Source of the DNA: a virus
Strand: one strand, 5' to 3'
IMG/VR virus record: IMGVR_UViG_3300033485_000003
Coordinates: 1 to 64,000 of that record
Length of the DNA: 64,000 nucleotides
In this document: positions 640-63,002 of the stretch, one piece after another
Layout of the letters: the number at the start of each line of letters is the position of its first letter
How positions within the stretch are numbered: position 1 is the first letter of the stretch
The notes under the pieces: generated by a model
What the model was told of the DNA's origin: nothing
The model's database searches: none
The model's input: the letters and a program-made list of their open reading frames with translations, nothing else
Made by a program: the position numbers and the translations under genes

Positions 640-1017
640 TTACATCTGAGTGGATTTCAGAAATTCTTCCAGAGCCATACCACCATATTGGCCGGCCGTC
701 AACCACAATTTCACCATAGATGGCGTGCGGGGGTTATCTTCGACTCCACGTCGGACATCATACGTCTTGTCTTGTGCCAATTCCATCAGCGTCTCGACTG
801 GGGTATTGTCGTTCGTGGCCACGCCCCACCGCACTCGCAATGCTGGATCCTTCGACAATCTCACCAACACATGTACCGGTGTAGAGAGATTGCCGGCGAC
901 CTCCCATCGGACGCCTTCATCTTCGTCGTACGACAATTCTTCCAACAGTTCCGGCGCCGTGTGGGGATCTCTAGCCAGAGCAAATTTAACGTATATGTCG
1001 TAGGTTATTTTAGCCAC
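640..1017 (-). CDS. LRV/HEAT-like helical repeat protein with shared C-terminal tag
   Basis: ~24-aa repeats (NxxTPxxxLxxLxxDxxxxVRxxVA). Ends KLWLTAGQYGGMALEEFL. GTG at 1017 preferred over the track start at 1038. Confidence 0.75.
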   Translation of the reverse strand: MAKITYDIYVKFALARDPHTAPELLEELSYDEDEGVRWEVAGNLSTPVHVLVRLSKDPALRVRWGVATNDNTPVETLMELAQDKTYDVRRGVEDNPRTPSMVKLWLTAGQYGGMALEEFLKSTQM

Positions 1018-1297
1018 GGTCGCCGCCCAAGGTCGCATTCAAAAAGTCGGCTAGCGGCATGTTGTATCCATCTGATCGCGCCCACACTCGAGCCATTTGA
1101 GTAATCTCCGGCTCCCGAAAAGGGCCCGACACTGAAGGGGTGGCTCGATAGACAGATGGCGGGTCTCCTTCAAGGTCGCCCCACTCCATCATATAGACGA
1201 CGCCGTTGTACTCGAAGCCGGAGTCGTCCAACGCCCAAATTGCGACCCTCGGCGGCAAATCGGCTTTTCTGAATCTGAGGTTTTTGTCAATCACCAC
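1010..1297 (-). CDS. Hypothetical protein with shared C-terminal tag
   Basis: 95-aa ORF directly after a sigma70-type promoter. Ends RVWARSDGYNMPLADFL. Confidence 0.7.
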   Translation of the reverse strand: MVIDKNLRFRKADLPPRVAIWALDDSGFEYNGVVYMMEWGDLEGDPPSVYRATPSVSGPFREPEITQMARVWARSDGYNMPLADFLNATLGGDRG

Positions 1298-1300
1298 CTC

Positions 1301-1329
1301 AATATACCACGGCGCGACACACTTGCCAA
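1301..1329 (-). promoter_or_regulatory. Sigma70-type early promoter
   Basis: TTGGCA-N17-TATATT with extended TGG, divergent from the late module. Confidence 0.7.
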
Positions 1330-1342
1330 CGTCTCATGCTAC

Positions 1343-1354
1343 AATCTTAACCAT
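1343..1354 (+). promoter_or_regulatory. Putative late promoter AATCTT-N5-T abutting ATG
   Basis: caatcttaaccat|ATG. Same motif and spacing at 2127, 7779, 15295, 19370 and 22132. Confidence 0.7.
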
Positions 1355-2119
1355 ATGACACCTAAAATCGGTTCCGCCGCCACCAAACTCATCAACACCG
1401 CCGTCGCCCAACTTTTCGCCCGTATCCGCGCGCAAGTGCTTGGACGCAAGCGGCCAGACAAAGACATTGCTTTCCGATACAACCCCGACTGGACACTGAC
1501 AGGAATTTTCGACGCCGCAGCACGTTCAGAAGGCGCCAAGCCAGATCAAACCACGCTCCGAGGGCTGTTGGACGTGGCCGAGTCGTACCTGGACGCCGCC
1601 GAAGCGCGTACCAAGGCCCACATTGGACAAACGATTCAAAGCTTCTTGCAGGACGCGGCCACCAAACACATCGAAACCAATTTGGTGACGGTGCTGGAGG
1701 GGCGTCTGGCGACCGTCTTTGGAGATGTCACCCGCGACGTGCGCCGCATCGTCGAGACCGAGAGTTCCATCGTCCGGAACATGTCCATCATGGATGGTAT
1801 TATCAAGGGTAACGCCTTGGCTGGCGTGGAAGACCCTACGATTTGTTTTATTTCCGTCAATGACATGCACAGGTGCGACGAATGCCGGAATCTCCACACC
1901 CTGACGGATGGTATCACGCCCAGACTGTGGAGGTTGTCTCAGATTGAAACCGGTTACCACAAAAAAGGTAGTCAGTTTCCTTCGATGTCTGGTCTGCACC
2001 CACATTGTAGGTGTCAACCTACCACCATTATGCCGGGATACGGATTTGACACCAACGGCCGAGTGGAGTATAAACATCCCGGTTTCGATGCGTATCTAGA
2101 TCAACGCCGCAACGTCTGA
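1355..2119 (+). CDS. Head morphogenesis protein (Mu gpF / SPP1 gp7-like)
   Basis: RRIVETE, D.HRCDEC and terminal HPHCRC motif typical of the family. Confidence 0.75.
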   Translation: MTPKIGSAATKLINTAVAQLFARIRAQVLGRKRPDKDIAFRYNPDWTLTGIFDAAARSEGAKPDQTTLRGLLDVAESYLDAAEARTKAHIGQTIQSFLQDAATKHIETNLVTVLEGRLATVFGDVTRDVRRIVETESSIVRNMSIMDGIIKGNALAGVEDPTICFISVNDMHRCDECRNLHTLTDGITPRLWRLSQIETGYHKKGSQFPSMSGLHPHCRCQPTTIMPGYGFDTNGRVEYKHPGFDAYLDQRRNV

Positions 2120-2126
2120 CGAGGTC

Positions 2127-2138
2127 AATCTTCTCACT
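2127..2138 (+). promoter_or_regulatory. Putative late promoter AATCTT-N5-T
   Basis: caatcttctcact|ATG. Confidence 0.7.
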
Positions 2139-5100
2139 ATGGCCACCCCAACGCCCCGCAGTTACTCTCAAGCCTTGTCGGATCTTCTCGGAACCTTTTT
2201 GGCGGAGAAGAATCTCCCGACATTGCAAGTCGGCAATCCCCTTTTGTCGATTTTTGAGGCTGCGGCCCGGAGCGACGTACGTTCCAGTCAAGACATCTTC
2301 AACGCCCTGTCGAGCATTGACCTGGACCGCGCCACGGGGCAAACGCTCGACCTCATCGGACTTAGCGAAGACCTCCCTCGCTTCGAATTATTCCCCTCCA
2401 GCGGGGTTATTACGGTCGGCGACAGTTCGTTTGTCAAGACATCCACAAAGATCTTCCCCGGACTCCCGCCCCCTATCGTCGGAGCCAATCAACTCTTCGT
2501 TTCCGACGCCACTGGATTCGGTGCGAGCGGGAGCTTGTATATCGGCCGCGGTACCACCAACGCTGAAGGTCCACTGACGTTTATCGGAGTGGTGGCCGGA
2601 GCTGGATTTTGGACCATCACGCTTGCGCCGGGACACGAAACCACCAGATATCACAACCTCAACGAATCCGTGACCCTAGCCTGCGGTGGCGACCGCGCCA
2701 TTCCGGCTGGGACCGTGGTGCAAACGACTCAAGGTACGATGTCTAGCGCGGTGCAGTTCAAGACCAACTACGCCGCCACCCTGCCAGACGGAGAAACATC
2801 CGTCAGCGGCATTGGCGTCATCGCTTCTACATACGGCACCGTAGGAAACGTCATCGTCGGAGCTGTCAACTCCTTTCTTAGCGCGCCATTCGTTGGGGCT
2901 ACCGTTACCAATCCGTCGCCATTCTCCAATGGTGTTGATGTCGAGCGAGACGACCCATACCGTGAGCGCATTCGTGCTGCGCGTAAGTCGAAGCGTCTGG
3001 GTACCGATCTGGCTCTCAAGACGTTTTTGACTGGGATCGTTTCTCCGGACGAGAACAAGAGGGCGTCGTCGGTTTCGGTTGTGCGTCGTGCAGGATCGCC
3101 CACGACCGTGTATGTCGACGATGGCACCGGCTACGAAGAGACCTCGTCCGGCGTAGCGATCGAGAGTCTTACCGATGAGGCGGTCGGCGGAGAGAAGTAC
3201 TTTCAGCTCGTCCAGAAGCCCGTCGCCAAGGCGACGGCGCAAGCCCTGTCTTACGCTCCATACGACGTGTCTGGAGCGCCTATTCTGGCGGTCGAAGTCG
3301 GCGGGGTGCTTTCCCAGCACTCCTTCAGCGACTCTGAATTTCGCGCGGCCGCTTCGGCTTCAGCGTACGAAGTGGTGGCCTCCATTAATGGAAACTCCAG
3401 TTTGACATTTGGTGCTAGAACCACCGACGGCGGCAGCCGGGTGGCGTTGTTCGCCAAATCCGACACCAACGAAGATGTCGCCGTGGTTGTTCCTGCGGCC
3501 GGGACGGATGCGAATGTTGTATTGGGGTTTGCATCTGGCCGCAATGACACCGTTAGGCTGTACTTGAACGATCGACCACTATCTAAGGATGGTGCCGTAG
3601 CGGAGTTGCGCTCCAACCCGTCGGGATTGTGGTCGCCGATGACGTCTCCGGTGACATTTGCCATCCAGGTAGACAGTATCGACGTTCCTACTTCTCCGGC
3701 CAACACGTATTCCATCACCGACCAAGACTTTGTCAATGCAGCTACTGGATATCAGACTGTCGCCGCCACCAACTCTTTGGCGTCGTGGGCTGCAGTGTTG
3801 AATTACCGCATCCCCGGTATCACCGCCCGTGTGGACGGCGGAGTGATTGTATTGTCTAGCAACAAGGGTGGAACTGCACAATCCAAGTTGGTTATTGAAG
3901 GATGCGGACTCACTACGGCCGGCATGTTTGCTACTGGAACCGCCACGGGTGCCGATTTCGATTATTTGCTTGACCGCAGCCTGGGGCAATTAAGCCTGGT
4001 CGACTCCAAAGTGTTGTCGGCAGGCGACCAGTTGACTGTCGGTAGCGCCACCACGCGAGCGTTCTTGGAGAGCCAATCGGTCACCGACGTGACTTTTGCG
4101 GCAACAACGACAACCGTGGCCGGAGAGACCGGCGCAGAGTTCTGGTTCGTTGTTGACGGCCAGCCGACTGCGATTCCCACCGGCGTCGCCACCGGAGTTC
4201 AAATCACCGTAGTCGCAGTCATGCCAACCACTAACGTGCAATTGGTGGCGTATACATCTGCTTCTGCCATCTTCAGTAATGTGCTCGAAGGTGATTGGTT
4301 GATTGCGACCGACTCCTCCTTTTCGGCAGCCAACCGTGGGGCTTGGCGGGTTGTATCTGCGTCTCCCACGACAGTGATGGTGGAGCGGGCGTTGTCTTGG
4401 GCGGACGGACAAACCCCATTTTTGGCTAGTGGTGGTCTGTATTTTGTACGGACACCGGCGCAACTTCAGCGTGTGTGGATCGAGGATGGCACCCACTACA
4501 CGGCGAGTGTATTGGCTGACTTGCTGAGCGCCTCCCTCGATGGAGCATCGGCGAGCACATACCGTACTACACGAATTCGAGTCAGCACCAACTCGTACGG
4601 TATTGGGGATATCGCTTTGGTGGCCGCCAACAGTGAAGCAGCCAAGCTCGGATTCCCCGTCGCAACAGAGACCAATCGTGACACACATTTGGCTAGTATC
4701 GTAGCCGGCCATGACGAAACCGGCACTCCGAATTTCGGGTCTGAAGTGGTGGCTTCTACGACCGGGCCGACTTCTGCAACGCTGCCTTCTATTGGCCAGC
4801 AGTCTACCGGGCGCGTGGCGGTGGTTTCTAGAGCGGAGCCGGATGCGTACACCCACCGAATCGGACATAAGGGGTTTTACACCCCGGTCACTGAAGTGTC
4901 TGGCGCTACCATTACGACCCGCACCGGCCCAACCGAGTGGATGCTTGGCGACAGGCTGTACGCGGCTTCTCCGTACGCACTAACCGGAGATGACACCTTA
5001 GGCGTGGTCGTTGACGGAGATGAGACCTCTGGACGTTACATTTGCCAGATGTACCGTCGCGTAGCCCCCGGCAGCGCTTTTTACGGCACCACAAACGATC

Positions 5101-7763
5101 TCAAGGACAGAGAAAACGGCAACGCCAGCCTGGCTCAAGTATTCGGCACCACGATGCAGTGGAACGACTGGATGGTTGTCATGGCGGCGAGGGCCAAGTC
5201 GCACGGAACGCCAGACAACAACAAAACAATGTTGTGGCGTTATCGCCGTCTCGGTGCCGATGGGAACACCGCGAGAATTCAGTACATATATCCCGCGGAG
5301 CCAAATGCGACGGCGGTGTCTTTTACCGACGCTACGACCGACGCCTATACCGACGTTACTGTCGCTCTACCTTCTGGGGCGGCGCGCACTGGAATCGCCG
5401 TCACCAATGCGACCAAACTGGGCGTCACGTCCGTACTTTACGGCTCCGGACTGTACACGTACACATACGTCTTCAATTTGCCCATCGCTTCCGCCGCTCG
5501 TGTAACCGATATAACGACATTGCAGCTGACGCTTCCGCCCGGAGTTGTGGATCACGGCTTGGTGGCCGGCAACCGGATTTACGTGGCCTGCAACGGAGCT
5601 GGCGGAGCCGCCGGGTTCAGTTCTGGAGTGTACACTATCGCCAGCACGCCGACCGCGACGAGCCTGACGTATTCGGAAGCGGGCACCGATACCACCGGTA
5701 TCAATATCGGTACGACCAGCTGCGATAACGCCGAGGCTCGACTGGGGGCTTCTACTGTCGTCGTAGGCGATGTTGTTTCAGTCGGCACTAACGCCTCCCT
5801 CCTGACCGACTTCAAACGTCCGGTGAAGGTCTTGTCTGTGGCTGACGGGTACTTTACTACACACGTGCCGACTCCGTCTACGGCCGTCTTCGGTGTGTTG
5901 AGCTGGGGTGCAATCAATTCCACCGCCAATATCTCGGCGTTCCCATTGTCTGGTAACGGCATCGTAGCCATCGCGGCCGCCATTAACGCCCAAGCTTCAA
6001 GCGCCGTCAGCGCGGTGGCGGTAGGCGATGGAGCTGCGGTTAATGGAACAATCGACTACGCCACCTACGAACTCTCCCCAAACGGACTCGACGGTACGAA
6101 CCCTTGGTATTATTTGTCGGATGGGGTGAATTACATCAGAAGTCACACGACACCGGGAAGCCCTAGCGTGGACTTCAACTTCACCTTCAAGAATTCAATC
6201 AACACCACCCTCGCCACCAACAGCGACTGGGCCAATGAAGATGTACGACTTGTACCACAATTAGCCACACATGTAGTAGACTATCTCAATACGTCCGCCC
6301 CGGGCGCCCTGTTTGCCAGCGCGACGATTGAGATCAGTGGGAAGCGTCCACAAATCACAACCAAGTCGCCCGGCTCTATCGGAAGTGTACAGTGTCAGGG
6401 TGGGTCCGCCAACGCCCTTGTCGCCGCCGTCAAAGGGGCAGCGGCTCAGGTAGCGACAAACTACTCGGCCGTGACAATCGCCACCAGCGACGCTATCGGA
6501 CTGAGCACCGGACATTGGGTGAAAGCGCAGAATCAAACCACCACTTCGAAGGTGCGCGTGACAAGCGCTACGGCTCTGACGTCCATCTCTCCGACTGGCG
6601 ACGTGGTGTGGAGCGGCACTAGGGCGTGGCAGGCGGCTAATACAGCACAAGCAATCATTCCTGGGGAAACCTGGCAATTTGAGCGCCAAGGCGACTTCAT
6701 CGCGGTCAGCAGTGCGGTTTCGAGTAGTTTGCTGACTGGAGTCAAAGAGGGAGATTGGGTCCACATTTCATCAGAAGTCTCAAATCCAACACATATCAAC
6801 CCAGCCAGCTTCGTGTCGGCCGCGAACCAAGGTTTATTTCGAGTCGTGCGTATTGACTCTACACTGAAGACTTTTTGGGTGGAAAACATCAACGCCTTGG
6901 AAGAAATTCAGGTAGCCGACATCGCGTTTTTGACGTACGACTCAATTGTACCAGGCGATCAGCTGGTTATCGGGTATCAGGGGTGGGGTACAGCCAACCT
7001 CGGAACCTGGACGGTGGAGTCCATCGACCTATCGACATACAACTCGACCTACACGAACAATACGTACAAGTTTAAGTTGTCGGTCGCAGACAAGGCGCCA
7101 ACGGCGGCCGGTCCAGTGGCGGCACTAGGAGTAAGCAATGCGGCTCTAGTGCGTGTGATTGAAGGGTCTGCCAGTCACCTCTTCAAGCGTGTATACGCCA
7201 TCGCCACGAATTCGACCGATCCGACGTTGTCGACTGTCAAATTCAATACATGGGATGGTTCCGACAAACTTGGAGAGTCTACTCTAACTACACTCGTTTC
7301 TTTGGATAAGCTCGCCTTTCCCGGAGCTACAGCTGTAGGCGCAGATGGCTACCGATACAATACGGGCCTTGTCGGGGAAGCAGCCAAGAAAGCCTTCGGT
7401 GTGGATTCCGATCCGACGACTTACCCGGGGATCGCATCCGCTGGAAAGAACATCAACTTCAGCGGCCCGGTAGTCCGGCGTGTGACGGTTAGTCTGGCTA
7501 TTCGAATGAGAAGTGGGGTTTCCGCTAACGTCAAATCCCGCATTCAATCTGCAGTTGCCGCCAAGATCAACTCGACACCAATCGGCCAATCAATCGCCAT
7601 TTCAGATATCGTTGCCTCGGCACAGTCCGTCAATGGGGTTGTGTCCGTTGTGGTGCTCAGCCCCACATATTCCGCCGGCCAAGATATGATCTCAGTACAG
7701 CCGATGGAAAAGCCGATGGTGCTGAGCATCGATCAAGACGTCAGCGTCTCGTTCGTGGGATAG
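2139..7763 (+). CDS. Giant baseplate J-like wedge protein (1874 aa)
   Basis: N-terminal ATGQTLD, IPAGTVV, G..GNV and GVDVERDDPYRERI; C-terminal IGQSIAISDIV...VNGV. Both are typical of baseplate J, with ~1400 aa of beta-rich insertion between. Confidence 0.8.
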   Translation: MATPTPRSYSQALSDLLGTFLAEKNLPTLQVGNPLLSIFEAAARSDVRSSQDIFNALSSIDLDRATGQTLDLIGLSEDLPRFELFPSSGVITVGDSSFVKTSTKIFPGLPPPIVGANQLFVSDATGFGASGSLYIGRGTTNAEGPLTFIGVVAGAGFWTITLAPGHETTRYHNLNESVTLACGGDRAIPAGTVVQTTQGTMSSAVQFKTNYAATLPDGETSVSGIGVIASTYGTVGNVIVGAVNSFLSAPFVGATVTNPSPFSNGVDVERDDPYRERIRAARKSKRLGTDLALKTFLTGIVSPDENKRASSVSVVRRAGSPTTVYVDDGTGYEETSSGVAIESLTDEAVGGEKYFQLVQKPVAKATAQALSYAPYDVSGAPILAVEVGGVLSQHSFSDSEFRAAASASAYEVVASINGNSSLTFGARTTDGGSRVALFAKSDTNEDVAVVVPAAGTDANVVLGFASGRNDTVRLYLNDRPLSKDGAVAELRSNPSGLWSPMTSPVTFAIQVDSIDVPTSPANTYSITDQDFVNAATGYQTVAATNSLASWAAVLNYRIPGITARVDGGVIVLSSNKGGTAQSKLVIEGCGLTTAGMFATGTATGADFDYLLDRSLGQLSLVDSKVLSAGDQLTVGSATTRAFLESQSVTDVTFAATTTTVAGETGAEFWFVVDGQPTAIPTGVATGVQITVVAVMPTTNVQLVAYTSASAIFSNVLEGDWLIATDSSFSAANRGAWRVVSASPTTVMVERALSWADGQTPFLASGGLYFVRTPAQLQRVWIEDGTHYTASVLADLLSASLDGASASTYRTTRIRVSTNSYGIGDIALVAANSEAAKLGFPVATETNRDTHLASIVAGHDETGTPNFGSEVVASTTGPTSATLPSIGQQSTGRVAVVSRAEPDAYTHRIGHKGFYTPVTEVSGATITTRTGPTEWMLGDRLYAASPYALTGDDTLGVVVDGDETSGRYICQMYRRVAPGSAFYGTTNDLKDRENGNASLAQVFGTTMQWNDWMVVMAARAKSHGTPDNNKTMLWRYRRLGADGNTARIQYIYPAEPNATAVSFTDATTDAYTDVTVALPSGAARTGIAVTNATKLGVTSVLYGSGLYTYTYVFNLPIASAARVTDITTLQLTLPPGVVDHGLVAGNRIYVACNGAGGAAGFSSGVYTIASTPTATSLTYSEAGTDTTGINIGTTSCDNAEARLGASTVVVGDVVSVGTNASLLTDFKRPVKVLSVADGYFTTHVPTPSTAVFGVLSWGAINSTANISAFPLSGNGIVAIAAAINAQASSAVSAVAVGDGAAVNGTIDYATYELSPNGLDGTNPWYYLSDGVNYIRSHTTPGSPSVDFNFTFKNSINTTLATNSDWANEDVRLVPQLATHVVDYLNTSAPGALFASATIEISGKRPQITTKSPGSIGSVQCQGGSANALVAAVKGAAAQVATNYSAVTIATSDAIGLSTGHWVKAQNQTTTSKVRVTSATALTSISPTGDVVWSGTRAWQAANTAQAIIPGETWQFERQGDFIAVSSAVSSSLLTGVKEGDWVHISSEVSNPTHINPASFVSAANQGLFRVVRIDSTLKTFWVENINALEEIQVADIAFLTYDSIVPGDQLVIGYQGWGTANLGTWTVESIDLSTYNSTYTNNTYKFKLSVADKAPTAAGPVAALGVSNAALVRVIEGSASHLFKRVYAIATNSTDPTLSTVKFNTWDGSDKLGESTLTTLVSLDKLAFPGATAVGADGYRYNTGLVGEAAKKAFGVDSDPTTYPGIASAGKNINFSGPVVRRVTVSLAIRMRSGVSANVKSRIQSAVAAKINSTPIGQSIAISDIVASAQSVNGVVSVVVLSPTYSAGQDMISVQPMEKPMVLSIDQDVSVSFVG

Positions 7764-7778
7764 CCAGTCGGGTAGCCC

Positions 7779-7790
7779 AATCTTTGGGGT
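7779..7790 (+). promoter_or_regulatory. Putative late promoter AATCTT-N5-T
   Basis: caatctttggggt|ATG, identical to the copy at 15295. Confidence 0.7.
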
Positions 7791-8273
7791 ATGCCAGTAG
7801 TCTTCCCGCAACCACTACCGCCGCTGCCAGACGCGACTCTTACGAGTCGCGGCGCAGTCAACAACGCCGCGCCACCACAAATCGCGCTGTCTAATCTGTC
7901 TCCGGCCGGAGCCGCCGTCAACGACTCCGTGGTTTGGAGTGGGACCGCGTGGGTGCCGCAAGCAGCTTCAGCTCTGGCTGCGGACAACAAAAATATGGTC
8001 GCTAGACTGACCACAGGGGATGGCCAGCTGGCATGCAATCTCCCGGTGGCCGCCGCAACCGTTCCGGGTTGGGTGGTAGTGGCGGTCAACGGCGTTACAG
8101 TCGAGGTCGGGGACGGCGTAAAGACGCTTGAGTGCTACTTCAGCAAGGATGGCGGCACGACGGCGACCACATACGGTGCACTAACTTCTGCAGACTATCT
8201 GTATTGGAACGGGTCTATCGCAGGATACCAGTTAGATACTACTGATACTATTGATTTTACTTATTTAGGATAA
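7791..8273 (+). CDS. Virion structural protein (fibre-associated)
   Basis: Late-module position. Its C-terminal domain is paralogous to the C-terminus of the next ORF. Confidence 0.6.
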   Translation: MPVVFPQPLPPLPDATLTSRGAVNNAAPPQIALSNLSPAGAAVNDSVVWSGTAWVPQAASALAADNKNMVARLTTGDGQLACNLPVAAATVPGWVVVAVNGVTVEVGDGVKTLECYFSKDGGTTATTYGALTSADYLYWNGSIAGYQLDTTDTIDFTYLG

Positions 8274-8277
8274 CACT

Positions 8278-9462: not shown

Positions 9463-9470
9463 AGGGCGAC

Positions 9471-10025: not shown

Positions 10026-10027
10026 CC

Positions 10028-53291: not shown

Positions 53292-53310
53292 AGTTAGCTC
53301 CACAAGCGTT

Positions 53311-53414: not shown

Positions 53415-53415
53415 C

Positions 53416-55161: not shown

Positions 55162-55186
55162 TAGGACTCCTGCGAAGGTTTCCTCC

Positions 55187-55196
55187 AGTATACCAC
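55187..55196 (-). promoter_or_regulatory. Extended -10 promoter
   Basis: GTGGTATACT upstream of groEL. Confidence 0.6.
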
Positions 55197-55271
55197 AACG
55201 CCACTACAATAACTCCAACGCCTCGAAAGTCACCCACATCGGGGTGGACTTGCGGCGCCCTTATGGCGAGG

Positions 55272-55949
55272 TCATTTCTTACCAGCCGTGGTTTTCTCGA
55301 GGATTTTAAGTAATGCCGCATCGACATCGTCCGGTGACATCGACTTGATTTCCTTGGATTGCCCATCAACCACCTCGCCTTTGTCTTCTGTACGATGCGT
55401 ATGGAGAATCTCACCCGATACGTTCTTGTCTTTATCCTGTCCCGTGAGACGAAGCAATAGCTCAAGGGTCTGCTGGTACGCCTTCAAGGTCATTTGTCCC
55501 TTCAAGTCGCCCAAGTCCTCTTCCTTGCCGGTCTGCAAAAACCGACGCAACTTATCGCCATTCAGCTTGTTGAACGCGGCAGCCCACAGACTCACGAACT
55601 GAACCGACTCGAGCTGGCTAGCCTGCACGGTCTCGTGGATCCGCTCCACCAAGCCTTCGGTGTAGTCCTTGCGCTTGAGGTCCCAATCGCCATCCATCTT
55701 AGCTCGAACAATCTCCCCCAACTTAAAGGAGGAGTTCATAGCCTGAATATCCTTGGCGCTACATCCACGCAAGTACAAGTTGTAGAATTGCTGAGATGTC
55801 GCAGGGGAGATAGGCGGCTTGCCGGATGACATGTAGTCGAGGTAGGCCTCCTTCTCTTCAGGCTCCAAAGCCTCGAAGCGCCCTTCTGCGGTGTCGAGGT
55901 TGGCCATCTGCTTACGGGCTCTACGCTCCAAACGAGATTCACGCGCCAT
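55272..55949 (-). CDS. HTH + coiled-coil protein, possible terminase small subunit
   Basis: Start MARESRL with GGAGG SD; LYLRG.S.KDI HTH, W...R and C-terminal MSPDDVDAAL pattern. Confidence 0.4.
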   Translation of the reverse strand: MARESRLERRARKQMANLDTAEGRFEALEPEEKEAYLDYMSSGKPPISPATSQQFYNLYLRGCSAKDIQAMNSSFKLGEIVRAKMDGDWDLKRKDYTEGLVERIHETVQASQLESVQFVSLWAAAFNKLNGDKLRRFLQTGKEEDLGDLKGQMTLKAYQQTLELLLRLTGQDKDKNVSGEILHTHRTEDKGEVVDGQSKEIKSMSPDDVDAALLKILEKTTAGKK

Positions 55950-56166
55950 TTTTGGCCTCCTGTACTTCGACGTCGTTGTATGGGGCATGACAACAATTGC
56001 CTTCTGCGATGCACTCAAGAGCTTCCCACTCACAAAGCTCGGCGCCATACTCTCCAGAATCATCGTGTTTAGCCCACGCCGCCGCCCTGGCGGCGACCTT
56101 ATCATCGGCCTCGACCTTAAAAATCAAGCGACCTGCGATGGGGATGGTTACGTAGTAAGTTTTCAT
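55939..56166 (-). CDS. Small hypothetical protein (tandem paralogue)
   Basis: MKTYYVTIPIAGRLIFKVEADD. Confidence 0.7.
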   Translation of the reverse strand: MKTYYVTIPIAGRLIFKVEADDKVAARAAAWAKHDDSGEYGAELCEWEALECIAEGNCCHAPYNDVEVQEAKNGA

Positions 56167-56387
56167 AAGGTCCTCTTGATTGTAGCCTCTACGCCCTTGT
56201 ACTTAAGACGCGACACGGTGATCTCATTGAGTGTTTCGTACGCATCCCACTCCACATCAACAGCGTCCAAACTTGCGGATGCCGCATATGTCGCCGCCGC
56301 CACACGCTTGGCACCACTCTCGCTAGACGATTTCACCTCAAAGAGAATCCTGCCTGCAATTGGAATCGATACATAGTAGGTCTTCAT
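56163..56387 (-). CDS. Small hypothetical protein (tandem paralogue)
   Basis: MKTYYVSIPIAGRILFEVKSSS; ATGA overlaps. Confidence 0.7.
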   Translation of the reverse strand: MKTYYVSIPIAGRILFEVKSSSESGAKRVAAATYAASASLDAVDVEWDAYETLNEITVSRLKYKGVEATIKRTL

Positions 56388-56770
56388 GGCATCCTTTTGA
56401 CGGTTACTTTCGTGTTCGGGTTGTATCCGCACAATGGGTCGATATCATCTTTTGGGAGCTCTTGCAAGCGTGTCCCACGATAGATCACCGTACGTGCTCG
56501 CTTAACCACCACCAACCACGACCCGCCAAACAGACTCTGTACCGCCTGGTCCAACTTGAATAGGAGTTGGGGTTTTTCGATATTCTTCTTGGGGGGCAAG
56601 GTCAAGACGAAAGTGACGGTGAATTCGTCTTGGTCGATCACCACTTTATGTTTGAGTGACTCTGGGAAAAATAGCTTAGGCCATACATTGACAGTCTTGA
56701 GCTGCCAGTCTGCGATGTGTAAGCCGGTGTTGGATAGCAGCCGCTGATGTGACACAAGTTCGTCACTCAT
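56384..56770 (-). CDS. Hypothetical protein
   Basis: 128 aa, ATGA-coupled to sbcD. Confidence 0.6.
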   Translation of the reverse strand: MSDELVSHQRLLSNTGLHIADWQLKTVNVWPKLFFPESLKHKVVIDQDEFTVTFVLTLPPKKNIEKPQLLFKLDQAVQSLFGGSWLVVVKRARTVIYRGTRLQELPKDDIDPLCGYNPNTKVTVKRMP

Positions 56771-57762
56771 AGCAACCCCGGAAGTCTCTCTTGTACCATT
56801 TTCCCCAAAACCTCATTCGATGTCCCGTACTTGGTTTGGTAACCGCCGACGAACATTTTGATAGCCGCACCGATCCCCATGGACTCTCGCACCGCCGACT
56901 TCGCCGCATTTACCGGAAAAGTCCTAACGCGACACCCGCTCCACCTCGCCCGGCGCTCTTGAATGAACTTCGCATCGCCATGGATGTCGATGATGTAACG
57001 CCAATTCGGATTGATGTCAAGTTGCAACGGACTCTCAATTCGGTCTTCGAATCGGAGGATCTTGTGGCAAAACTGTTCGGTTTTTACGGATTTGATTACT
57101 TTGGCGCCCTTAACTCCGAATTCAATTACATTTACCGACCGGTCGATGTTGGCATCTGAGGCCGTGCGCCACCTAGGGGCTCCTGGGTAAAATACGTCAC
57201 AGCCGAATACGGCCAAGCCCTCAGAAACCCGGTCGAATCGGTATGGAGTGTGCATGTGGCCGATGACGAAGCTTTTGTCTTGCACGTCTTCTAGGGATGC
57301 CGCATCGGGAGCGTAAAACCCGTTGTCGTATTTTGAGCCCTGCACTGCTTGGTGGGCTACAACGCACTTCGCATCGGACTCACGTACGGAGCGCAAGAAA
57401 TCTTCGTTGCTGTGAGTGTATGGCATAAACAAAACACCGTCCATCTCCGTCGGCTTATCTACCACAGTAATGGCGTCAACGTGAGCCAACATAGAGTGGT
57501 TGGGGCTTGAACCGGCTGCCGCAAGGTCGTGGTTTCCCACCAAGGCGATTACCGGTGTTGTACAAAGTGCAGCAAACGCCTGACGCCACCACGCCATCAC
57601 TTCACAATTCACGAGCTTGTGGTTGTGGTACTGATCGCCCATAAAGATGACGTTGTCGACCTCTTCGTCGACGACGATCGGCAAAATGCCGTCGATGAGG
57701 GCTTGGCAGTCATCAAGCTCGCCTTCAACGGCGTGGACGTCACCTACAACTAGAGATCGCAC
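56767..57762 (-). CDS. SbcD/Mre11/gp47-like nuclease
   Basis: GDVH, GD, GNHD, AHQ and GHMH phosphoesterase motifs. Confidence 0.85.
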   Translation of the reverse strand: MRSLVVGDVHAVEGELDDCQALIDGILPIVVDEEVDNVIFMGDQYHNHKLVNCEVMAWWRQAFAALCTTPVIALVGNHDLAAAGSSPNHSMLAHVDAITVVDKPTEMDGVLFMPYTHSNEDFLRSVRESDAKCVVAHQAVQGSKYDNGFYAPDAASLEDVQDKSFVIGHMHTPYRFDRVSEGLAVFGCDVFYPGAPRWRTASDANIDRSVNVIEFGVKGAKVIKSVKTEQFCHKILRFEDRIESPLQLDINPNWRYIIDIHGDAKFIQERRARWSGCRVRTFPVNAAKSAVRESMGIGAAIKMFVGGYQTKYGTSNEVLGKMVQERLPGLL

Positions 57763-57959
57763 GGTTCCCCCTTATATAAAGACATTTCAGCGTAACGGAT
57801 CTTCAACATACCGAGAGCTACAAGAGCCTGCTCTTCATCGTGTTCAGCCTTTAACGCCCGGAACACCCAACCCTCCATGGCCGTTGTGATTTTTTGCTTG
57901 AACTCGTCAAAGCGCTTTTTCTCCGCGAGAAGAGCTTCCAAGTAATTGATTTCGCTCAT
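57750..57959 (-). CDS. Hypothetical protein
   Basis: 69 aa, coupled ORF. Confidence 0.55.
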   Translation of the reverse strand: MSEINYLEALLAEKKRFDEFKQKITTAMEGWVFRALKAEHDEEQALVALGMLKIRYAEMSLYKGEPCDL

Positions 57960-58216
57960 CGCGCCTGCCCAAAGTAATTGGACACCACCTGAGTCGTGAC
58001 TTTGTCCACCTCCACAACACTCGACTTAATCAAAGCGAGTAATTCCGTGGCCTTCCGACACCAATCAGCTGGACTAGGAACGGCCGGCAAGGCCGACTGG
58101 ACCAAACTATCGAACTTTTGGGCGGAGATATCACGGCGCAACGCGACGGCTTGACGGCGTGTCGCGCAATACAACTGCCGGGCGTAAGAGAGGGAGTCGT
58201 AGTTGGAGGCGTTCAT
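57956..58216 (-). CDS. Hypothetical protein
   Basis: 86 aa, coupled ORF. Confidence 0.55.
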   Translation of the reverse strand: MNASNYDSLSYARQLYCATRRQAVALRRDISAQKFDSLVQSALPAVPSPADWCRKATELLALIKSSVVEVDKVTTQVVSNYFGQAR

Positions 58217-58422
58217 CGCTTCACCTTCAAGTCGATGTCGTCGGCAAACATAGCATTACTGATAGCCTTGAGCCGCTTCTCGGATGACTCTTTAAAATGC
58301 GCTTGCTCCAACCACTTAAGGCGCTCAATCAACTGTGCGGAGTGGGCCTTAACTTCCGTAAGCTCCTGTTCGAGGTAGTCTACCCTGTCTTCAAGGTGGT
58401 TGATTCTCGCGGTTCCCATCAC
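58213..58422 (-). CDS. Small coiled-coil protein
   Basis: 69 aa, heptad pattern. Confidence 0.55.
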   Translation of the reverse strand: MMGTARINHLEDRVDYLEQELTEVKAHSAQLIERLKWLEQAHFKESSEKRLKAISNAMFADDIDLKVKR

Positions 58423-58883
58423 TTCATCTCCGCCGTTGTCGTGTAACTCCCCGATACGCTGGTAATACCGTCACTATCGACAAGAATCGCGGTGGGAATC
58501 AAAGTCATGCCGCTCCCGGACGTTCGGAGGACCTGATGGGTGCTGCCAGGCGTGCACGTCACATACGGCTCCTCCACGAGCTGGATCATCGTCTTTGGCA
58601 CCAAAATAAAAGTCTTGTCGCCAACCGTGAAGACGTCCTTAGCCCATTGCTGGGTATACAAATCCCCACGCACCCACACCTTAACCCCTGGAATGAATTG
58701 CTTACAGCCATCTCCGGATGCTAGGAAAACCACCTCGAGCTGCTGTAGTTCAAGGGTGTTGGAAATCAGCACCATGCCGCCGACGCGCTTCTTCTCGACG
58801 TGTCGAGTTGGGAACGGCGTGCAAGCCACAAGGCCATTGACGGTGGAAACCGATGACGTTTCATTGGTAGAGCTGGTGGTCAT
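58419..58883 (-). CDS. Divergent GroES/Cpn10-like co-chaperonin
   Basis: EKKRVGGMVL mobile loop, EVVFLASG, PGVKVWV and VGDKTFILVPKTMIQLVE follow the GroES pattern. Confidence 0.65.
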   Translation of the reverse strand: MTTSSTNETSSVSTVNGLVACTPFPTRHVEKKRVGGMVLISNTLELQQLEVVFLASGDGCKQFIPGVKVWVRGDLYTQQWAKDVFTVGDKTFILVPKTMIQLVEEPYVTCTPGSTHQVLRTSGSGMTLIPTAILVDSDGITSVSGSYTTTAEMK

Positions 58884-58899
58884 TTTATCTCCTTCGAAT

Positions 58900-59253
58900 T
58901 TACATCAAGTTTTTATCGACTTTGGACAGAGCGTCTTTGGCATCGTCCAAGGCGTACTCAAGTCGCGCTAGATAGCACTCACATCCAGCCGACATCCCTG
59001 CTAGTTCACTTGCAACATCCTCGGACGGCTCGATCATCCCGTCGAGCGCCTTCGCCAATTCGACGACGAGAGCGAGTGCGGAGTCCCGCTCTTGAATTGT
59101 TTTGCGCATCGAGTTCCACAGCGTGTGACTGCGGATCTCGTCCGGCACCATCACATCTTCCCCCGCAGCAAAATCGACGTACCGAAGTCCCTCTGTCGCT
59201 CCGACCACATCCGCTAGCTGCTTGAGAGCCTGCTCGGTTTTACAGTTGTTCAC
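58900..59253 (-). CDS. Hypothetical protein
   Basis: 117 aa, coupled to the sigma gene. Confidence 0.55.
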   Translation of the reverse strand: MNNCKTEQALKQLADVVGATEGLRYVDFAAGEDVMVPDEIRSHTLWNSMRKTIQERDSALALVVELAKALDGMIEPSEDVASELAGMSAGCECYLARLEYALDDAKDALSKVDKNLM

Positions 59254-60311
59254 AATGAGATCCCTTTCAGACGAAGTAGCTTCTGCTCTACCACGGAAAG
59301 ATCCTTAAGTCCAGCTTGGAGACTTACTAGAGCTTGAGTCCTCTCGACGATGACGTCCGGCCGATGTTCTTCATCATCCTCATAGCACTCGAGAGTGGTA
59401 TCTCCGGTCTCTTGGTCGACAGCACAGTCTCCGGAAACATGGCTGGCTGCCGCAAGAAGACCTTGGATTTCCGGGACTGTTACATGGTTCTTTTCGGGGA
59501 TGTTTTCGTTGACCGCGGCGACGATCAAGTCCATGTCGGTGTTCTTGTCGAGGAACCGGGAGGCTTTGTGAGCGCGATACACACGTCGTGCGTCAACAGG
59601 CCAGAGATGCAACAGTGTGGAATTGTAGGCCTCTATCCTATCTCCACACATACGCCCGAGGATTACATCTCGGAATACCTTGAAGGTTTTAAGTTCTTCC
59701 TCGTCCGTCATGTTTTCTGTGAGGAGCGGGTCAAATTTGTCGATCCCCTCCTGCAATCCGATAGCGTGCGTCTGAATCAAATCCAAAAACGACATGTGGG
59801 AGCGTGGAGTTTGGTTCCAGAACGTCCGGCAATAACTGATGGCTAACGGCAGGTTCATTTCCATGATTTCCGTGCGAATTCGCTCGATTTCACGGATCGA
59901 CGCACGGATCTCTGGGTTCAAAGTGTCGCCAGCGGTATCTTTGCACCATCTAAAGTAGCGGTAATTGAACTTGAACTTGTGCAGCGCTGCACCATCGCGC
60001 GCCTTGAGTGCCGGTGAGATCTCGGCAGTGAACTTCGTTTGACGTTCACGGAAATACGGCCTGCTCGAAAGGAGGTTCCGCTTGGTATCGCAAATGTACT
60101 GGATGAACGAGACGTACACCGACGCCCCATACACCTCAAACAGTTGGCCTTGCGCTTTACGCTCAGCCGCGATAAGAGCCTTGAGCTGTCGACGTTGAGT
60201 GTGCAACCGATCAACGTCAGTCATTTTGCCGTATCGACCGATAGCGGCTGTAAGGGATTTTGCGAAGTTCTTAAAGAAGACATCGCTGTTGTCATATCCG
60301 CCGATACTCAT
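59250..60311 (-). CDS. Sigma70-family factor lacking the region 4.2 HTH (putative late sigma)
   Basis: EIMEMNLPLAIS, FLDLIQ..IGL..IDKFD, a region 3 and acidic 3.2 finger; ends LSVVEQKLLRLKGISL, equivalent to RpoD LTAREAKVLRMRFGI. Confidence 0.8.
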   Translation of the reverse strand: MSIGGYDNSDVFFKNFAKSLTAAIGRYGKMTDVDRLHTQRRQLKALIAAERKAQGQLFEVYGASVYVSFIQYICDTKRNLLSSRPYFRERQTKFTAEISPALKARDGAALHKFKFNYRYFRWCKDTAGDTLNPEIRASIREIERIRTEIMEMNLPLAISYCRTFWNQTPRSHMSFLDLIQTHAIGLQEGIDKFDPLLTENMTDEEELKTFKVFRDVILGRMCGDRIEAYNSTLLHLWPVDARRVYRAHKASRFLDKNTDMDLIVAAVNENIPEKNHVTVPEIQGLLAAASHVSGDCAVDQETGDTTLECYEDDEEHRPDVIVERTQALVSLQAGLKDLSVVEQKLLRLKGISL

Positions 60312-60348
60312 GGGGTTCTCGATTCTCTGTTTGCTACGTTATATCCCC

Positions 60349-60358
60349 ATTATACACC
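60349..60358 (-). promoter_or_regulatory. -10 element upstream of the sigma gene, flanked by inverted repeats
   Basis: GGTGTATAAT; gattctc (60321) and gagaatc (60363) inverted repeat. Confidence 0.5.
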
Positions 60359-60423
60359 AGTCGAGAATCTTCTTGACGGTACCTCTCTTTGTTGGCTTCG
60401 TCAAGTCCAAAATACCTTCACTT

Positions 60424-60849
60424 CTACATCCTTGAAGGCGTTTTGTCCATTACCGCCTTGAATTCCTGCAAAGTCATACCTTGATACTCGCCAACGAGAA
60501 GGTACAGTCTTGTAGCCGGCGAGGTGTTTGGATTTGACCGAACGTAATCTCTGACCTTCTTCACTTTGTCTACAGCCAATACATCTAGTATGAATTCTGG
60601 TGCGTGAATGTTGACCGCCACGGAAGCACGAACATGGAAGTTTTTGCAGGAAGCTAACGTCGTCATAACCCAGATGTCGGTTGTCATCTCTCCTTGTACA
60701 ACCTTATCTAAATAGTCTTTAGCTATAGCAACCTCGATGCTATTCGGTGGAGTGTTAGGACGACCGAACATCACATCGTCACGAAGCACCTTCGGTAATT
60801 CATCTGCGGTTACATCGACAGCTAGGGGATTGTCCGGACATTCTCTCAT
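60424..60849 (-). CDS. LRV/HEAT-like repeat protein with shared C-terminal tag
   Basis: VRASVAVNIHAPEFILDVLAVD..VR..V.SNPNT; ends RLYLLVGEYQGMTLQEF. Confidence 0.7.
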   Translation of the reverse strand: MRECPDNPLAVDVTADELPKVLRDDVMFGRPNTPPNSIEVAIAKDYLDKVVQGEMTTDIWVMTTLASCKNFHVRASVAVNIHAPEFILDVLAVDKVKKVRDYVRSNPNTSPATRLYLLVGEYQGMTLQEFKAVMDKTPSRM

Positions 60850-61223
60850 TTGAGAGTCTCCTTGAACTCATTCAACGTCATGTTTTGGTACCCACCCATA
60901 CGCATATACAACCTGGTACCCAACGCTGTGTTGGGGTTGCTCAACACGAGCTCTCGGATGTACTTGAGTGGGTCGGCGGACAGAATATCCAAGGCTTCTT
61001 CAGGCGCGTATACGTTCGCCGCTACGGCTTCACGGATGTAGAAGTAAGGGTGTTGGGCCCATCGCACCAACTTTTTCGGATCGGTGGATTTTTCCACAGC
61101 TTCAATGGCGGAGATTTGGTCTTCTTCAAAATCCATTACCAGTGTGACTGGCACTAGCTGGTGACGGTGGAAGTAGTCGTCTCGAACAGTTTTAGGTAAA
61201 TCGTCGAATATGTAGGATCTCAT
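60846..61223 (-). CDS. LRV/HEAT-like repeat protein with shared C-terminal tag
   Basis: IREAVAANVYAPEEALDILSAD..IR..V.SNPNT; ends RLYMRMGGYQNMTLNEF. Confidence 0.7.
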   Translation of the reverse strand: MRSYIFDDLPKTVRDDYFHRHQLVPVTLVMDFEEDQISAIEAVEKSTDPKKLVRWAQHPYFYIREAVAANVYAPEEALDILSADPLKYIRELVLSNPNTALGTRLYMRMGGYQNMTLNEFKETLK

Positions 61224-61227
61224 AGTT

Positions 61228-62712
61228 TCACATCCTCACCATTTTCACCGGCCCGTAAATGTCCTCAAAAATCCTCTTGCGAGCCAATGCGTGTGCGTGT
61301 ACCGTGCGGATGTTTGTGACGTCAAAATCGATGATGTTGCACGACGTCTTGTTGAGGGGCTTGAAGGGGCGTGTACAACGACCTACACCTTGACGAACCT
61401 CCACTTCGGATTTACCCCCTCTGAGATAAATCATCGTTTTTACACTTTTGAAGTCAGTGCCCACACTGACGCACGATGTAGCTACGAGTATAGGGAACTC
61501 CGACGCATTGAATTGTTTAACGAGCGAGTCGTTGTCGCACTCGTGGTATTTTTCCGGGACTTTCGACTTGTTATCGGCCAACGGCCCGTGGGCGAAGCGA
61601 ACTTCATGTTGGAAGTGCGGTAGAAGTTCGGAAAACTGAGAGACCTCGTCAACCAGTATAAGTACCTGGTGTTTCGACACCGCCACACTCTGGTTAGCGA
61701 TAGCCGCCGCCCTCTTAAAAACTTCTGGATTGTAAAAGAAGTGCTTGCGGGTCATCTCATTCGGATCTGAACTTTCGAACTCGACGTGAGACTGCACAGG
61801 AACCATGAAGAACACCGGCTTGGCGAGGTAACCGCCATCAACGCCTTGACGTACGGTCAGTTCGAGCACGGTATGCCCCGTCAATGAGTCCAAAAGTTTG
61901 CCAGATCCGTCCCCACGAATTTGGGTGGCCGAAAAGCTGAATCTATACGGGGCGTTTGCGACTACACCTAGTGCAACTTTCTCAAAAGTGGTCGCCGCGA
62001 TTGTGTGCGACTCGTCTGTAATAAAAACCTCACACTTGGAAAGATCTTCCCATTCTTTCGTACCGACCTCAACCCGAGTCAAGGATTGCCCAGTGCCGAT
62101 GACGAACAACTTGCCGGCTTCCTTCTTGCCTCCGTAGAACTTGCCAACGTACTTTTTCCCGAAATGCTTGACGAAGTCTTCATAGAGTTGCCCCGAAATG
62201 CTAGCAGAAGGCGCCATAATGACTGTCTTAAGTCCGAGTGCTTTAACCAAAAGCAATGCGCAAAAACTTTTCCCGGTGCCGGTCGCAAGCTCCACTCGCG
62301 CATGCTTTGCTTCCAACAACCTATCTCGCGCTTCAGTTTGGTATGGGTAGGGCGTGCGGTCCGGAACGACCGCCCACGGGATTGTTTTAGGTTCTGGGTA
62401 AACCACCTTGTTAGTTACCGTGCAGCCGTATTTCGATTTTAAGGCCTCTAGCAGCCCGCTGTTGACGTAATGACGTCCGGACCCATCTCGGCTTAGGAGG
62501 CACACCTTCTGACTCGCCTGAAGCTCAGCCAGGCGGGCTGCGTAGGCTTCCGCACCAAACTTGTGGGCGAACCAGGTCGCGTGCTGTAACTTCTTGAGTT
62601 CGAAAGCCACCGAAGTGTCGGTGTAGGTAAGTTCTTCTTGAAGTGACTTCAGCTCAGACGGCGTCGCGTCGTCGACGTACAGCTTCGTAGGGGTCTCGAG
62701 AGTGAGTTTCAT
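61228..62712 (-). CDS. SF2 (UvsW-like) DNA helicase
   Basis: PYPYQ, ATGTGKS, DESH, SAT and QGVGRCTR. Start re-assigned to MKLTLETP (ATGA overlap). Confidence 0.88.
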   Translation of the reverse strand: MKLTLETPTKLYVDDATPSELKSLQEELTYTDTSVAFELKKLQHATWFAHKFGAEAYAARLAELQASQKVCLLSRDGSGRHYVNSGLLEALKSKYGCTVTNKVVYPEPKTIPWAVVPDRTPYPYQTEARDRLLEAKHARVELATGTGKSFCALLLVKALGLKTVIMAPSASISGQLYEDFVKHFGKKYVGKFYGGKKEAGKLFVIGTGQSLTRVEVGTKEWEDLSKCEVFITDESHTIAATTFEKVALGVVANAPYRFSFSATQIRGDGSGKLLDSLTGHTVLELTVRQGVDGGYLAKPVFFMVPVQSHVEFESSDPNEMTRKHFFYNPEVFKRAAAIANQSVAVSKHQVLILVDEVSQFSELLPHFQHEVRFAHGPLADNKSKVPEKYHECDNDSLVKQFNASEFPILVATSCVSVGTDFKSVKTMIYLRGGKSEVEVRQGVGRCTRPFKPLNKTSCNIIDFDVTNIRTVHAHALARKRIFEDIYGPVKMVRM

Positions 62713-63002
62713 TGCACAACCCCCACGAAATCTCCAAAAGACATACCACTGTGCTCTGAATAGGTAGCGAGCCATAGCTTGAGAGCGCTCTTGACGTCAA
62801 AACCTTGCCAATCGGGCGAGTTAAGAAGTTCGACAAACCGTCGCTCATTTTCAAATTCAAGAGACTCAACTCTGTTCAACGGCGCTTCGAACAACTCCAT
62901 AAAACAGTTCCCATCACAGCACTTCGGAATGCTCTCGGCGTAAGCCGCCAGCAAATTCGCCATGTCAACAAATGTTTTGGGAGTCTCGAGAGTGATCTTC
63001 AT
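62709..63002 (-). CDS. Hypothetical protein with shared C-terminal tag
   Basis: Starts MKITLETP; ends KLWLATYSEHSGMSFGDF. Confidence 0.65.
   Translation of the reverse strand: MKITLETPKTFVDMANLLAAYAESIPKCCDGNCFMELFEAPLNRVESLEFENERRFVELLNSPDWQGFDVKSALKLWLATYSEHSGMSFGDFVGVVQ

What the first reader, a model, noticed from the sequence alone, without database searches (positions are those of the whole stretch)
640..63002. Five small early proteins with different bodies share one C-terminal tag
Seen: 640 KLWLTAGQYGGMALEEFL; 1010 RVWARSDGY-NMPLADFL; 60424 RLYLLVGEYQGMTLQEFK; 60846 RLYMRMGGYQNMTLNEFK; 62709 KLWLATYSEHSGMSFGDFV. Consensus is (R/K)h(W/Y)h-x3-5-(Y/H)-x0-1-(G/N)M-x-h-x-(E/D)F, always within about 12 residues of the C-terminus. 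Three carry LRV/HEAT-like repeats, two have unrelated non-repeat bodies, and the loci lie 60 kb apart. Inference: a portable docking or sorting signal. It could define a family of substrate adaptors feeding one partner (for example the phage ClpP or a host unfoldase, by analogy to poxvirus ankyrin/F-box proteins), or be a virion-packaging or localisation tag. I do not recognise it as a named domain.
Basis: partly seen in the sequence, partly recalled or inferred. Interest (0 to 1): 0.82.

Follow-up and report, generated by a model that had tools for sequence, protein, structure and literature searches.

The report
Portable C-terminal helix-loop-helix module on phage proteins
A clade of large uncultured phages attaches one conserved ~30-residue two-helix ending, derived from the last unit of a helical repeat fold, to dozens of otherwise different small proteins; the shared ending is real and movable, but its reader or purpose is still unknown.

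Summary
All five minus-strand ORFs exist and end in the described tail: 5 regex matches in the genome against 0 in 300 shuffles. The 103-kb record carries at least 11 such proteins. An exhaustive profile search found 71 further protein clusters, all metagenomic, and related contigs hold 69 more ORFs, up to eight per 20 kb. The tail is always C-terminal.

In about three quarters of carriers the body is LRV repeats. A confident AlphaFold model of the 640 protein shows the tail as the modified last repeat that closes the solenoid. About a quarter of carriers lack LRV repeats and fall into roughly 21 body clusters, including the 1010 and 62709 types.

A profile built only from foreign LRV-type tails still finds the 1010 tail (E=7e-6). 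It finds the 62709 tail marginally (E=0.02), and orthologues back that one up.

So the tail is a lineage-specific, portable helix-loop-helix module. No Pfam, PHROG or PDB entry covers it.

The docking or sorting function is untested, and the tail is not more conserved than the bodies between orthologues.

The scan has also recorded analogous, non-homologous shared tags in other phages.

The parts
640..1038 (-). 132-aa protein: three LRV repeats plus the C-terminal tail (tail coded by 643-738)
   Evidence: Pfam LRV 56.4 bits against a cut-off of 21.6, three stretches. AlphaFold2 pLDDT 93.6: a helical solenoid whose last unit is the tail, with helices 107-114, 117-120 and 123-130. A 72%-identical orthologue lies in L031.
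1010..1297 (-). 95-aa protein with a non-LRV, partly beta body plus the tail (tail coded by 1013-1117)
   Evidence: No Pfam or PHROG family. Orthologues P0002 and P0003 (66% and 63% identity) keep the tail. The foreign-tail HMM gives E=7e-6. dN/dS is 0.10. The AlphaFold2 model is poor (pLDDT 59) but places two helices over the tail.
60424..60849 (-). 141-aa protein with degenerate LRV repeats plus the tail, Tyr in place of Trp (tail coded by 60427-60537)
   Evidence: Pfam LRV 17.4 bits, below the cut-off. Tail HMM E=1e-7. Its start overlaps the stop of the upstream gene.
60846..61223 (-). 125-aa LRV protein plus the tail (tail coded by 60849-60941)
   Evidence: Pfam LRV 27.0 bits, above the cut-off. 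Orthologues in L020 and L034 (65-67% identity), dN/dS 0.09.
62709..63002 (-). 97-aa protein with a Cys-rich helical non-LRV body (CCxGxCF motif) plus a divergent tail (tail coded by 62712-62810); an alternative TTG start lies at 63041
   Evidence: No Pfam family. Orthologues in L020, L034 and L039, and a paralogue type in L026 whose tail is near consensus. Foreign-tail HMM E=0.021. dN/dS 0.16-0.20.
61228..62712 (-). Context: DEAD/ResIII helicase lying between tail-bearing genes in one minus-strand block
   Evidence: Pfam ResIII, DEAD and Helicase_C. Its first 13 codons resemble those of the 62709 gene.
59250..60311 (-). Context: sigma-70-like gene directly downstream of the 60424 gene
   Evidence: Weak Sigma70_r2 match, below the cut-off.
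2..706 (-). Context: RNA ligase gene downstream of the 640 gene, running off the record
   Evidence: Pfam RNA_ligase 37.8 bits.

Best explanation
The shared ending is a lineage-specific C-terminal helix-loop-helix module of about 30 residues. Its pattern is (T)PP, then helix A (h-V-K/R-h-W/Y-L), then a 4-7-residue loop usually holding Tyr and Gly, then helix B starting M-(S/T)-L-x-E-F-L. It is a modified LRV repeat. In most carriers it is the terminal repeat that closes a short LRV solenoid. Recombination within these phage genomes has also placed it on many unrelated small bodies: beta-rich, Cys-rich, HTH-like and zinc-ribbon-like. The carriers form variable arrays of small accessory genes in non-structural regions. 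I infer, without having shown it, that the module gives many different small binder or effector bodies one common interaction surface for a shared phage or host partner, or for each other. Shown: the module exists, is strictly C-terminal, is LRV-like in structure, is portable, and is under purifying selection. Inferred: that it acts as a docking handle. The confidence given is for the whole statement including the inferred handle role; the shown structural and evolutionary part alone I would put at about 0.9.
For: There are 11 members in this record, 71 database clusters with the tail 3-16 residues from the end in 70 of 71, and 69 unique ORFs in related contigs, all C-terminal. The p640 model has pLDDT 93.6 and the tail continues the helix pattern of the repeats. 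Pfam LRV_2 aligns weakly through the tail as if it were one more repeat. Of 150 bodies, 110 have an LRV unit and 40 do not, the latter falling into about 21 BLAST clusters; ten of those tested show no LRV in Pfam. The leave-out profile recovers the 1010 and 62709 tails, and their orthologues keep the tail. Tail-coding DNA is at most 69% identical between paralogues, and dN/dS is 0.09-0.20, so conservation acts on the protein. Next to the conserved baseplate/254-aa genes (79-86% identical), the relative L031 has eight tail genes where this phage has two, which marks a variable accessory locus. Among 1.8 billion representative proteins only these small metagenomic proteins carry the tail, so it is not a general LRV cap. 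From textbook knowledge, M-(S/T)-x-x-E-F is a helix N-capping box with a hydrophobic staple, which explains several of the invariant positions.
Against: No partner is identified and no complex was predicted. Between orthologues the tail is no better conserved than the body. Among paralogues it is about as conserved as the preceding LRV repeat, 0.32 against 0.30 and 0.40 against 0.33, which is what a purely structural element would show. The conserved positions are mostly hydrophobic and could all be core-facing. The model of the non-LRV p1010 is too poor (pLDDT 59) to show whether the tail is free or packed. The 62709 tail is only marginal by profile (E=0.021).
Confidence: 0.45

Rival explanations
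1. The tail is a purely structural cap or stabiliser. It is a specialised terminal repeat that shields the hydrophobic core of short LRV arrays, and on other small bodies a generic two-helix stabiliser with no common partner.
For: In the confident p640 model the tail is the last solenoid unit. LRV_2 aligns through it. Conserved residues are mainly hydrophobic or helix-capping. There is no extra conservation relative to body or neighbouring repeat. About 73% of carriers are LRV proteins.
Against: Roughly a quarter of carriers have no LRV array to cap. Ordinary LRV proteins elsewhere lack this ending. The module is never internal or N-terminal in about 150 proteins.
Confidence: 0.3
2. The tail is a self-association module. 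It pairs with another tail in a four-helix bundle, making homo- or heterodimers among family members.
For: It is a lone amphipathic helix-loop-helix rich in W, L, M and F, present on more than 10 co-encoded proteins. False-positive hits show that helix B resembles the exit helix of EF-hands, motifs that work in pairs.
Against: In the p640 model the tail packs on its own solenoid. No multimer prediction could be run. There are no calcium-ligand residues and no EF-hand Pfam hit.
Confidence: 0.12
3. The tail is a virion-packaging address, functionally like the T4 capsid-targeting sequence, so that a variable set of small proteins is loaded into the head and injected.
For: T-even internal proteins are a diverse set sharing only a conserved targeting sequence (PMC3012670). 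Here the bodies are diverse and gene content varies between close relatives. One array abuts the structural operon.
Against: The T4 tag is N-terminal, about 10 residues long and cleaved. This one is C-terminal, folded and about 30 residues long. Most carriers lie in blocks with replication and transcription genes on the strand opposite the structural genes. There are no proteomic data.
Confidence: 0.1
4. The shared tail is a chance resemblance or an artefact of ORF calling.
For: The first leave-out HMM, built from only eight paralogues, gave weak scores for the 1010 and 62709 tails, E=0.81 and 0.11.
Against: There are 0 matches in 300 shuffles against 5 observed. The larger foreign profile gives E=7e-6 and 0.021. 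Orthologues are conserved with low dN/dS, and there are hundreds of independent occurrences.
Confidence: 0.01

Closest known systems
LRV repeat proteins (Pfam PF01816 LRV, PF25591 LRV_2; structure 1LRV)
   Same: Most carriers have bona fide LRV repeats. The tail has the length and helix-turn-helix layout of one repeat and follows the usual NPxTP turn. Fold searches return 1LRV, HEAT-like alphaRep proteins and phage 'LRV' proteins.
   Different: The W/Y, Y-G, M-(S/T)-L-x-E-F signature and the longer loop are not in the LRV models. The PDB profile match to 1LRV stops before the tail. The tail also occurs without any LRV array.
Terminal caps of repeat proteins treated as separate modules (LRRCT/LRRNT of LRR proteins, ankyrin C-cap, TPR solvating helix); from own knowledge
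   Same: It is a specialised last unit with its own consensus that closes a solenoid.
   Different: Such caps are not normally found on unrelated non-repeat bodies. This one is.
Poxvirus ankyrin-repeat/PRANC (F-box-like) proteins; from own knowledge
   Different: No F-box or PRANC match was found in Pfam scans. The host is bacterial, no SCF-type partner is known, and the function is untested.
T4 capsid-targeting sequence on T-even internal proteins (PMC3012670)
   Same: Diverse small proteins share only a short conserved terminal element, at loci that vary between related phages.
   Different: The T4 element is N-terminal, about 10 residues long and removed by the prohead protease. This one is a folded C-terminal element of about 30 residues, and packaging is not shown.

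Membership tests
LRV repeat family (PF01816) | Whole-protein score above the Pfam gathering cut-off (21.6 bits) from tandem ~24-residue repeats | tested here: met
   Met for the 640 protein (56.4 bits, 3 repeats) and the 60846 protein (27.0 bits). The 60424 protein is below the cut-off (17.4 bits). The 1010 and 62709 proteins have no match.
LRV repeat family (PF01816) | Right-handed solenoid of alternating short helices | tested here: met
   The p640 AlphaFold2 model has pLDDT 93.6 with alternating 7- and 9-residue helices. Foldseek returns 1LRV, alphaRep and HEAT proteins with TM about 0.55, but no PDB row reaches E<=0.001 (best 9.5e-3); BFVD phage LRV proteins match down to 1e-6. This was tested only for p640.
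LRV repeat family, applied to the 1010 and 62709 proteins | Any detectable LRV unit in the body | tested here: not met
   Pfam finds none. A local LRV-unit HMM gives no hit for p1010 and E=14 for p62709.
Tail as a terminal LRV-type repeat | The tail occupies the structural position of one repeat and follows the NPxTP turn | tested here: met
   Helices 107-114 and 123-130 continue the pattern. LRV_2 aligns through the tail at 13-20 bits. Atlas features of the tail point to LRV clusters, but scores below 0.8 make this a lead only.
Poxvirus-type ANK/PRANC or F-box adaptors | C-terminal F-box/PRANC domain detectable by profile | tested here: not met
   No such Pfam family appears among the five proteins or the 23 relatives at E<=0.1-1.
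T4-type capsid-targeting sequence | N-terminal ~10-residue leader removed by the prohead protease; protein found in the virion | tested here: not met
   The module is C-terminal and about 30 residues long in every case. Cleavage and virion content cannot be tested with these tools.
EF-hand | 12-residue loop with Asp/Asn/Glu calcium ligands; Pfam EF-hand match | tested here: not met
   There is no EF-hand Pfam hit. The loop varies in length and lacks acidic ligands. Only helix B resembles the exit helix, which is the source of false positives such as P0076.
Common-partner docking tag (functional class) | Demonstrated binding of the tail to one shared partner | not testable with these tools
   No multimer prediction or experiment was available.

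The most novel reading that the evidence does not exclude
The module is an address label read by a dedicated, still unidentified phage or host receptor. Candidates are a packaging or scaffold component that loads the proteins into the head for co-injection, or a host hub protein. The 11 or more tail-bearing proteins per genome, and the arrays that differ between close relatives, would then be an exchangeable effector repertoire delivered or recruited through a single handle.
Probability: 0.3. Interest if true: 0.8.

Novelty: new variant of a known kind. Interest (0 to 1): 0.55.

Why it matters
The tail defines an undescribed family of more than 150 proteins with no name, Pfam, PHROG or PDB counterpart for the tail. 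It shows a repeat-protein cap becoming a free-standing, shuffled module. If the module is a docking handle, it marks a set of small, fast-turning-over phage accessory proteins, possibly host-takeover or counter-defence factors, that act through one partner. It would also provide a simple bait for finding that partner. The scan has recorded analogous, non-homologous shared terminal modules in several other large uncultured phages, which suggests a general design principle worth testing.

Tried and rejected
- **Public genome searches.** Megablast and tblastn against GenBank phages gave no match. A scan of 185,579 prokaryote genomes for the TPPLV[KR][LIV][WY]L pattern found no relative, but that pattern is narrow. 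A scan of IMG/VR with the p1010 alignment found nothing.
- **Family libraries.** PHROGs gave nothing for the five proteins or for ten non-LRV carriers.
- **ESM Atlas.** The tail gave only weak LRV-like leads, and p1010 gave nothing.
- **First leave-out HMM.** The version built from eight paralogues was underpowered. It was replaced by a 55-sequence foreign profile.
- **Extra constraint on the tail.** I expected the tail to be more conserved than the bodies. It is not, so that argument for function was dropped.
- **Recent gene conversion between tails.** Rejected, because DNA identity is at most 69%.
- **Sigma-70 promoter scan to test 'early'.** The counts were not above the shuffles.
- **EF-hand and clamp-binding or PIP-box resemblances of helix B.** Considered and not pursued, because the key residues are absent and there is no test.
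- **AlphaFold model of p1010.** Too poor to use for surface analysis. Model coordinates are not exposed, so burial of tail residues in p640 could not be measured.
Full report
**What is there**

The window is the first 64 kb of a 102,957-bp IMG/VR virus record that CheckV rates 64% complete. The same proteins also lie on a 164-kb contig. Pfam confirms LRV repeats in the 640, 60424 (sub-threshold) and 60846 proteins. It finds nothing in the 1010 and 62709 proteins.

**The family is larger than reported**

- An HMM of the five tails finds five more C-terminal copies outside the window: 66366-66776+, 66748-67494+, 67433-67864+, 84163-84507- and 89406-89780+.
- A 505-residue open frame (485-aa protein, P0066) at 64663-66177+ ends in a variant closest to the 62709 tail, with pairwise E=5e-4. 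That makes 11 members in an incomplete genome.
- An exhaustive HMMER search of 1.84 billion representative proteins with the 11-tail profile returned 76 hits at E<=1e-3.
  - Five are false positives that match only the 'MTLEEFL'-like half, for example an EF-hand protein.
  - The other 71 are proteins of 47-235 aa, plus one of 485 aa. The conserved Phe lies 3-16 residues from the C-terminus in 70 of them.
- The ten hits looked up are all singleton metagenomic sequences, and none carries a functional name (one is labelled only 'hypothetical protein').
- Scans of IMG/VR and JGI metagenome contigs gave 26 loci from a handful of related samples. They hold 69 unique tail-bearing ORFs, with up to eight per 20 kb and often in tandem. 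Every full-length tail match is C-terminal.
- Nothing was found in GenBank phages or, for one narrow pattern, in 185,579 prokaryote genomes.

**What the tail is**

In the LRV members the tail directly follows the NPxTP turn that ends every LRV repeat. The AlphaFold2 model of the 640 protein uses a 40-sequence alignment and reaches pLDDT 93.6 and pTM 0.85. It is a solenoid of alternating 7- and 9-residue helices.

In that model the tail supplies the last unit. Helix 107-114 carries the V-K-L-W-L segment. A short turn helix at 117-120 carries Y-G-G. Helix 123-130 starts at L-E-E-F-L. Pfam LRV_2 aligns weakly (13-20 bits) straight through the tail, as if it were one more repeat.

Fold searches return 1LRV, HEAT-like alphaRep proteins and phage proteins annotated as LRV. 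A profile search of PDB sequences matches 1LRV over the repeats only and stops before the tail. No Pfam or PHROG model is specific for the tail.

From general structural knowledge, M-(S/T)-x-x-E-F is a helix N-capping box (S/T..E) with a hydrophobic staple (M..F). That accounts for several of the near-invariant positions. The tail is therefore a modified, lineage-specific terminal LRV repeat, a helix-loop-helix of about 30 residues. It is not a general LRV cap, because the exhaustive search found it only in this group of small metagenomic proteins.

**Is it portable?**

- A first profile built from only eight paralogues gave weak scores, E=0.81 and 0.11.
- A better-powered and fairer profile used 55 database tails from LRV-positive proteins of other genomes. 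It scores the 1010 tail at E=7.2e-6 and the 62709 tail at E=0.021 among 2,034 six-frame ORFs. The best noise is 0.096.
- Orthologues settle the point.
  - P0002 and P0003 (66% and 63% identical to the 1010 protein) keep the tail, and P0003 is closer to the consensus.
  - The 62709 type recurs in L020, L034 and L039. A paralogous type in L026 shares the CCxGxCF body motif and has a near-consensus tail.

Across 150 tail-bearing bodies, 110 contain an LRV unit and 40 do not. The 40 fall into about 21 BLAST clusters. A few of those clusters are probably degenerate LRVs. At least ten are clearly different:

- the 1010 type;
- the 62709 type;
- two or three beta-rich 'WW' types that form tandem arrays (L031 10513-11441, L042 1782-3693);
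- an HTH-like type (P0050);
- a zinc-ribbon-like pair (L018 13263-14118);
- P0042, P0057, P0065, P0078 and P0079.

Ten of these were scanned in Pfam, and none shows LRV. None has a PHROG family. Portability is therefore supported.

**Evolutionary behaviour**

Tail-coding DNA is at most 69% identical between paralogues, so the sharing is not recent gene conversion. The 1010, 62709 and 60846 genes have dN/dS of 0.09-0.20 against orthologues, so they are real genes under purifying selection.

The tail is not more conserved than the rest. Between orthologues, tail and body identities are similar. Among paralogues, the tail is about as conserved as the preceding LRV repeat, 0.32 against 0.30 and 0.40 against 0.33 in ungapped windows. 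This weakens any argument for function based on exceptional conservation.

Gene content at these loci turns over quickly. In L031 the baseplate-J-like giant protein and the 254-aa neighbour are 79-86% identical to this phage's. Even so, eight tail genes sit where this phage has two. In L042 a different set of about six tail genes follows a fragment that is 98.6% identical to the RNA ligase ORF.

**Context**

- The 1010 and 640 genes overlap by 29 nt. They lie upstream of an RNA ligase and are divergent from the structural operon that starts at 1355.
- The 62709, 60846 and 60424 genes sit in one minus-strand block with an AAA_28 protein, a DEAD/ResIII helicase and a sigma-70-like gene, and their stops and starts overlap.
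- This fits a non-structural, early or middle class, but timing is not shown. Sigma-70-like promoter counts are at the shuffle level.

**How it probably works**

Shown: a strictly C-terminal, LRV-derived helix-loop-helix module that caps LRV solenoids in most carriers and has been moved onto many unrelated small bodies.

Inferred:
- About 0.45 for the docking or handle role. Bodies with no solenoid to cap still keep the module, and the module is never internal, so it most likely provides a common interaction surface that links diverse small binder or effector bodies to one partner.
- About 0.3 that it is only a structural cap or stabiliser.
- About 0.12 for a dimerisation module.
- About 0.1 for a packaging address like the T4 capsid-targeting sequence. 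A review describes that sequence as the only conserved element of an otherwise diverse set of internal defence-countering proteins (PMC3012670).

No F-box or PRANC-like domain is present.

**Limits**

- The p1010 model is poor (pLDDT 59).
- The host is unknown.

**Earlier notes of this scan**

I confirmed those members independently. Follow-ups on other genomes describe analogous but non-homologous shared terminal modules in large uncultured phages. I did not test those.

Noticed in passing
window 62650-63080 (-): The first 13 codons of the 62709 gene (start 63002) and of the adjacent helicase (start about 62712) are near-identical. BLASTP gives 11 of 17 residues (E=0.005), and the DNA shares ATGAA..TCACTCTCGAGAC. 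Orthologues of the 62709 protein in L020 and L034 have a different N-terminus. This suggests a local duplication of the helicase 5' end onto the small gene.
   Followed up: partly
window 1301-1329 (-): A sigma-70-like promoter (TTGGCA-17-TATATT, extended -10 TG, 10 of 12 matches) ends only 3 nt before the GTG start of the 1010 gene. That would imply a leaderless or near-leaderless mRNA. However, the number of such sites in the region is at chance level.
   Followed up: no
L031:7938-11441 and L042:350-3693 (related contigs): These are variable arrays of six to eight tail-bearing genes, including tandem beta-rich 'WW' types absent from this phage. L031's array sits next to core genes that are 79-86% identical to this phage's; L042's follows a 73-aa fragment 98.6% identical to the RNA ligase ORF.
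   Followed up: partly
window 1355-2119 (+) and 2139-7763 (+): A 254-aa protein with no Pfam family (an HPHCRC motif near its end) precedes an 1874-aa protein whose only match is Baseplate_J. Both are well conserved in L031 (86% and 79%).
   Followed up: no
record 92551-95652 (outside the window; L008, L012): An open frame of about 1,111 residues contains internal LRV/LRV_2-like repeats but no terminal tail. It could be an uncapped LRV array.
   Followed up: no
window 59250-60311 (-): The sigma-like protein matches only Sigma70_r2, weakly (17.5 bits, below the cut-off). It lies immediately downstream of two tail-bearing genes.
   Followed up: no
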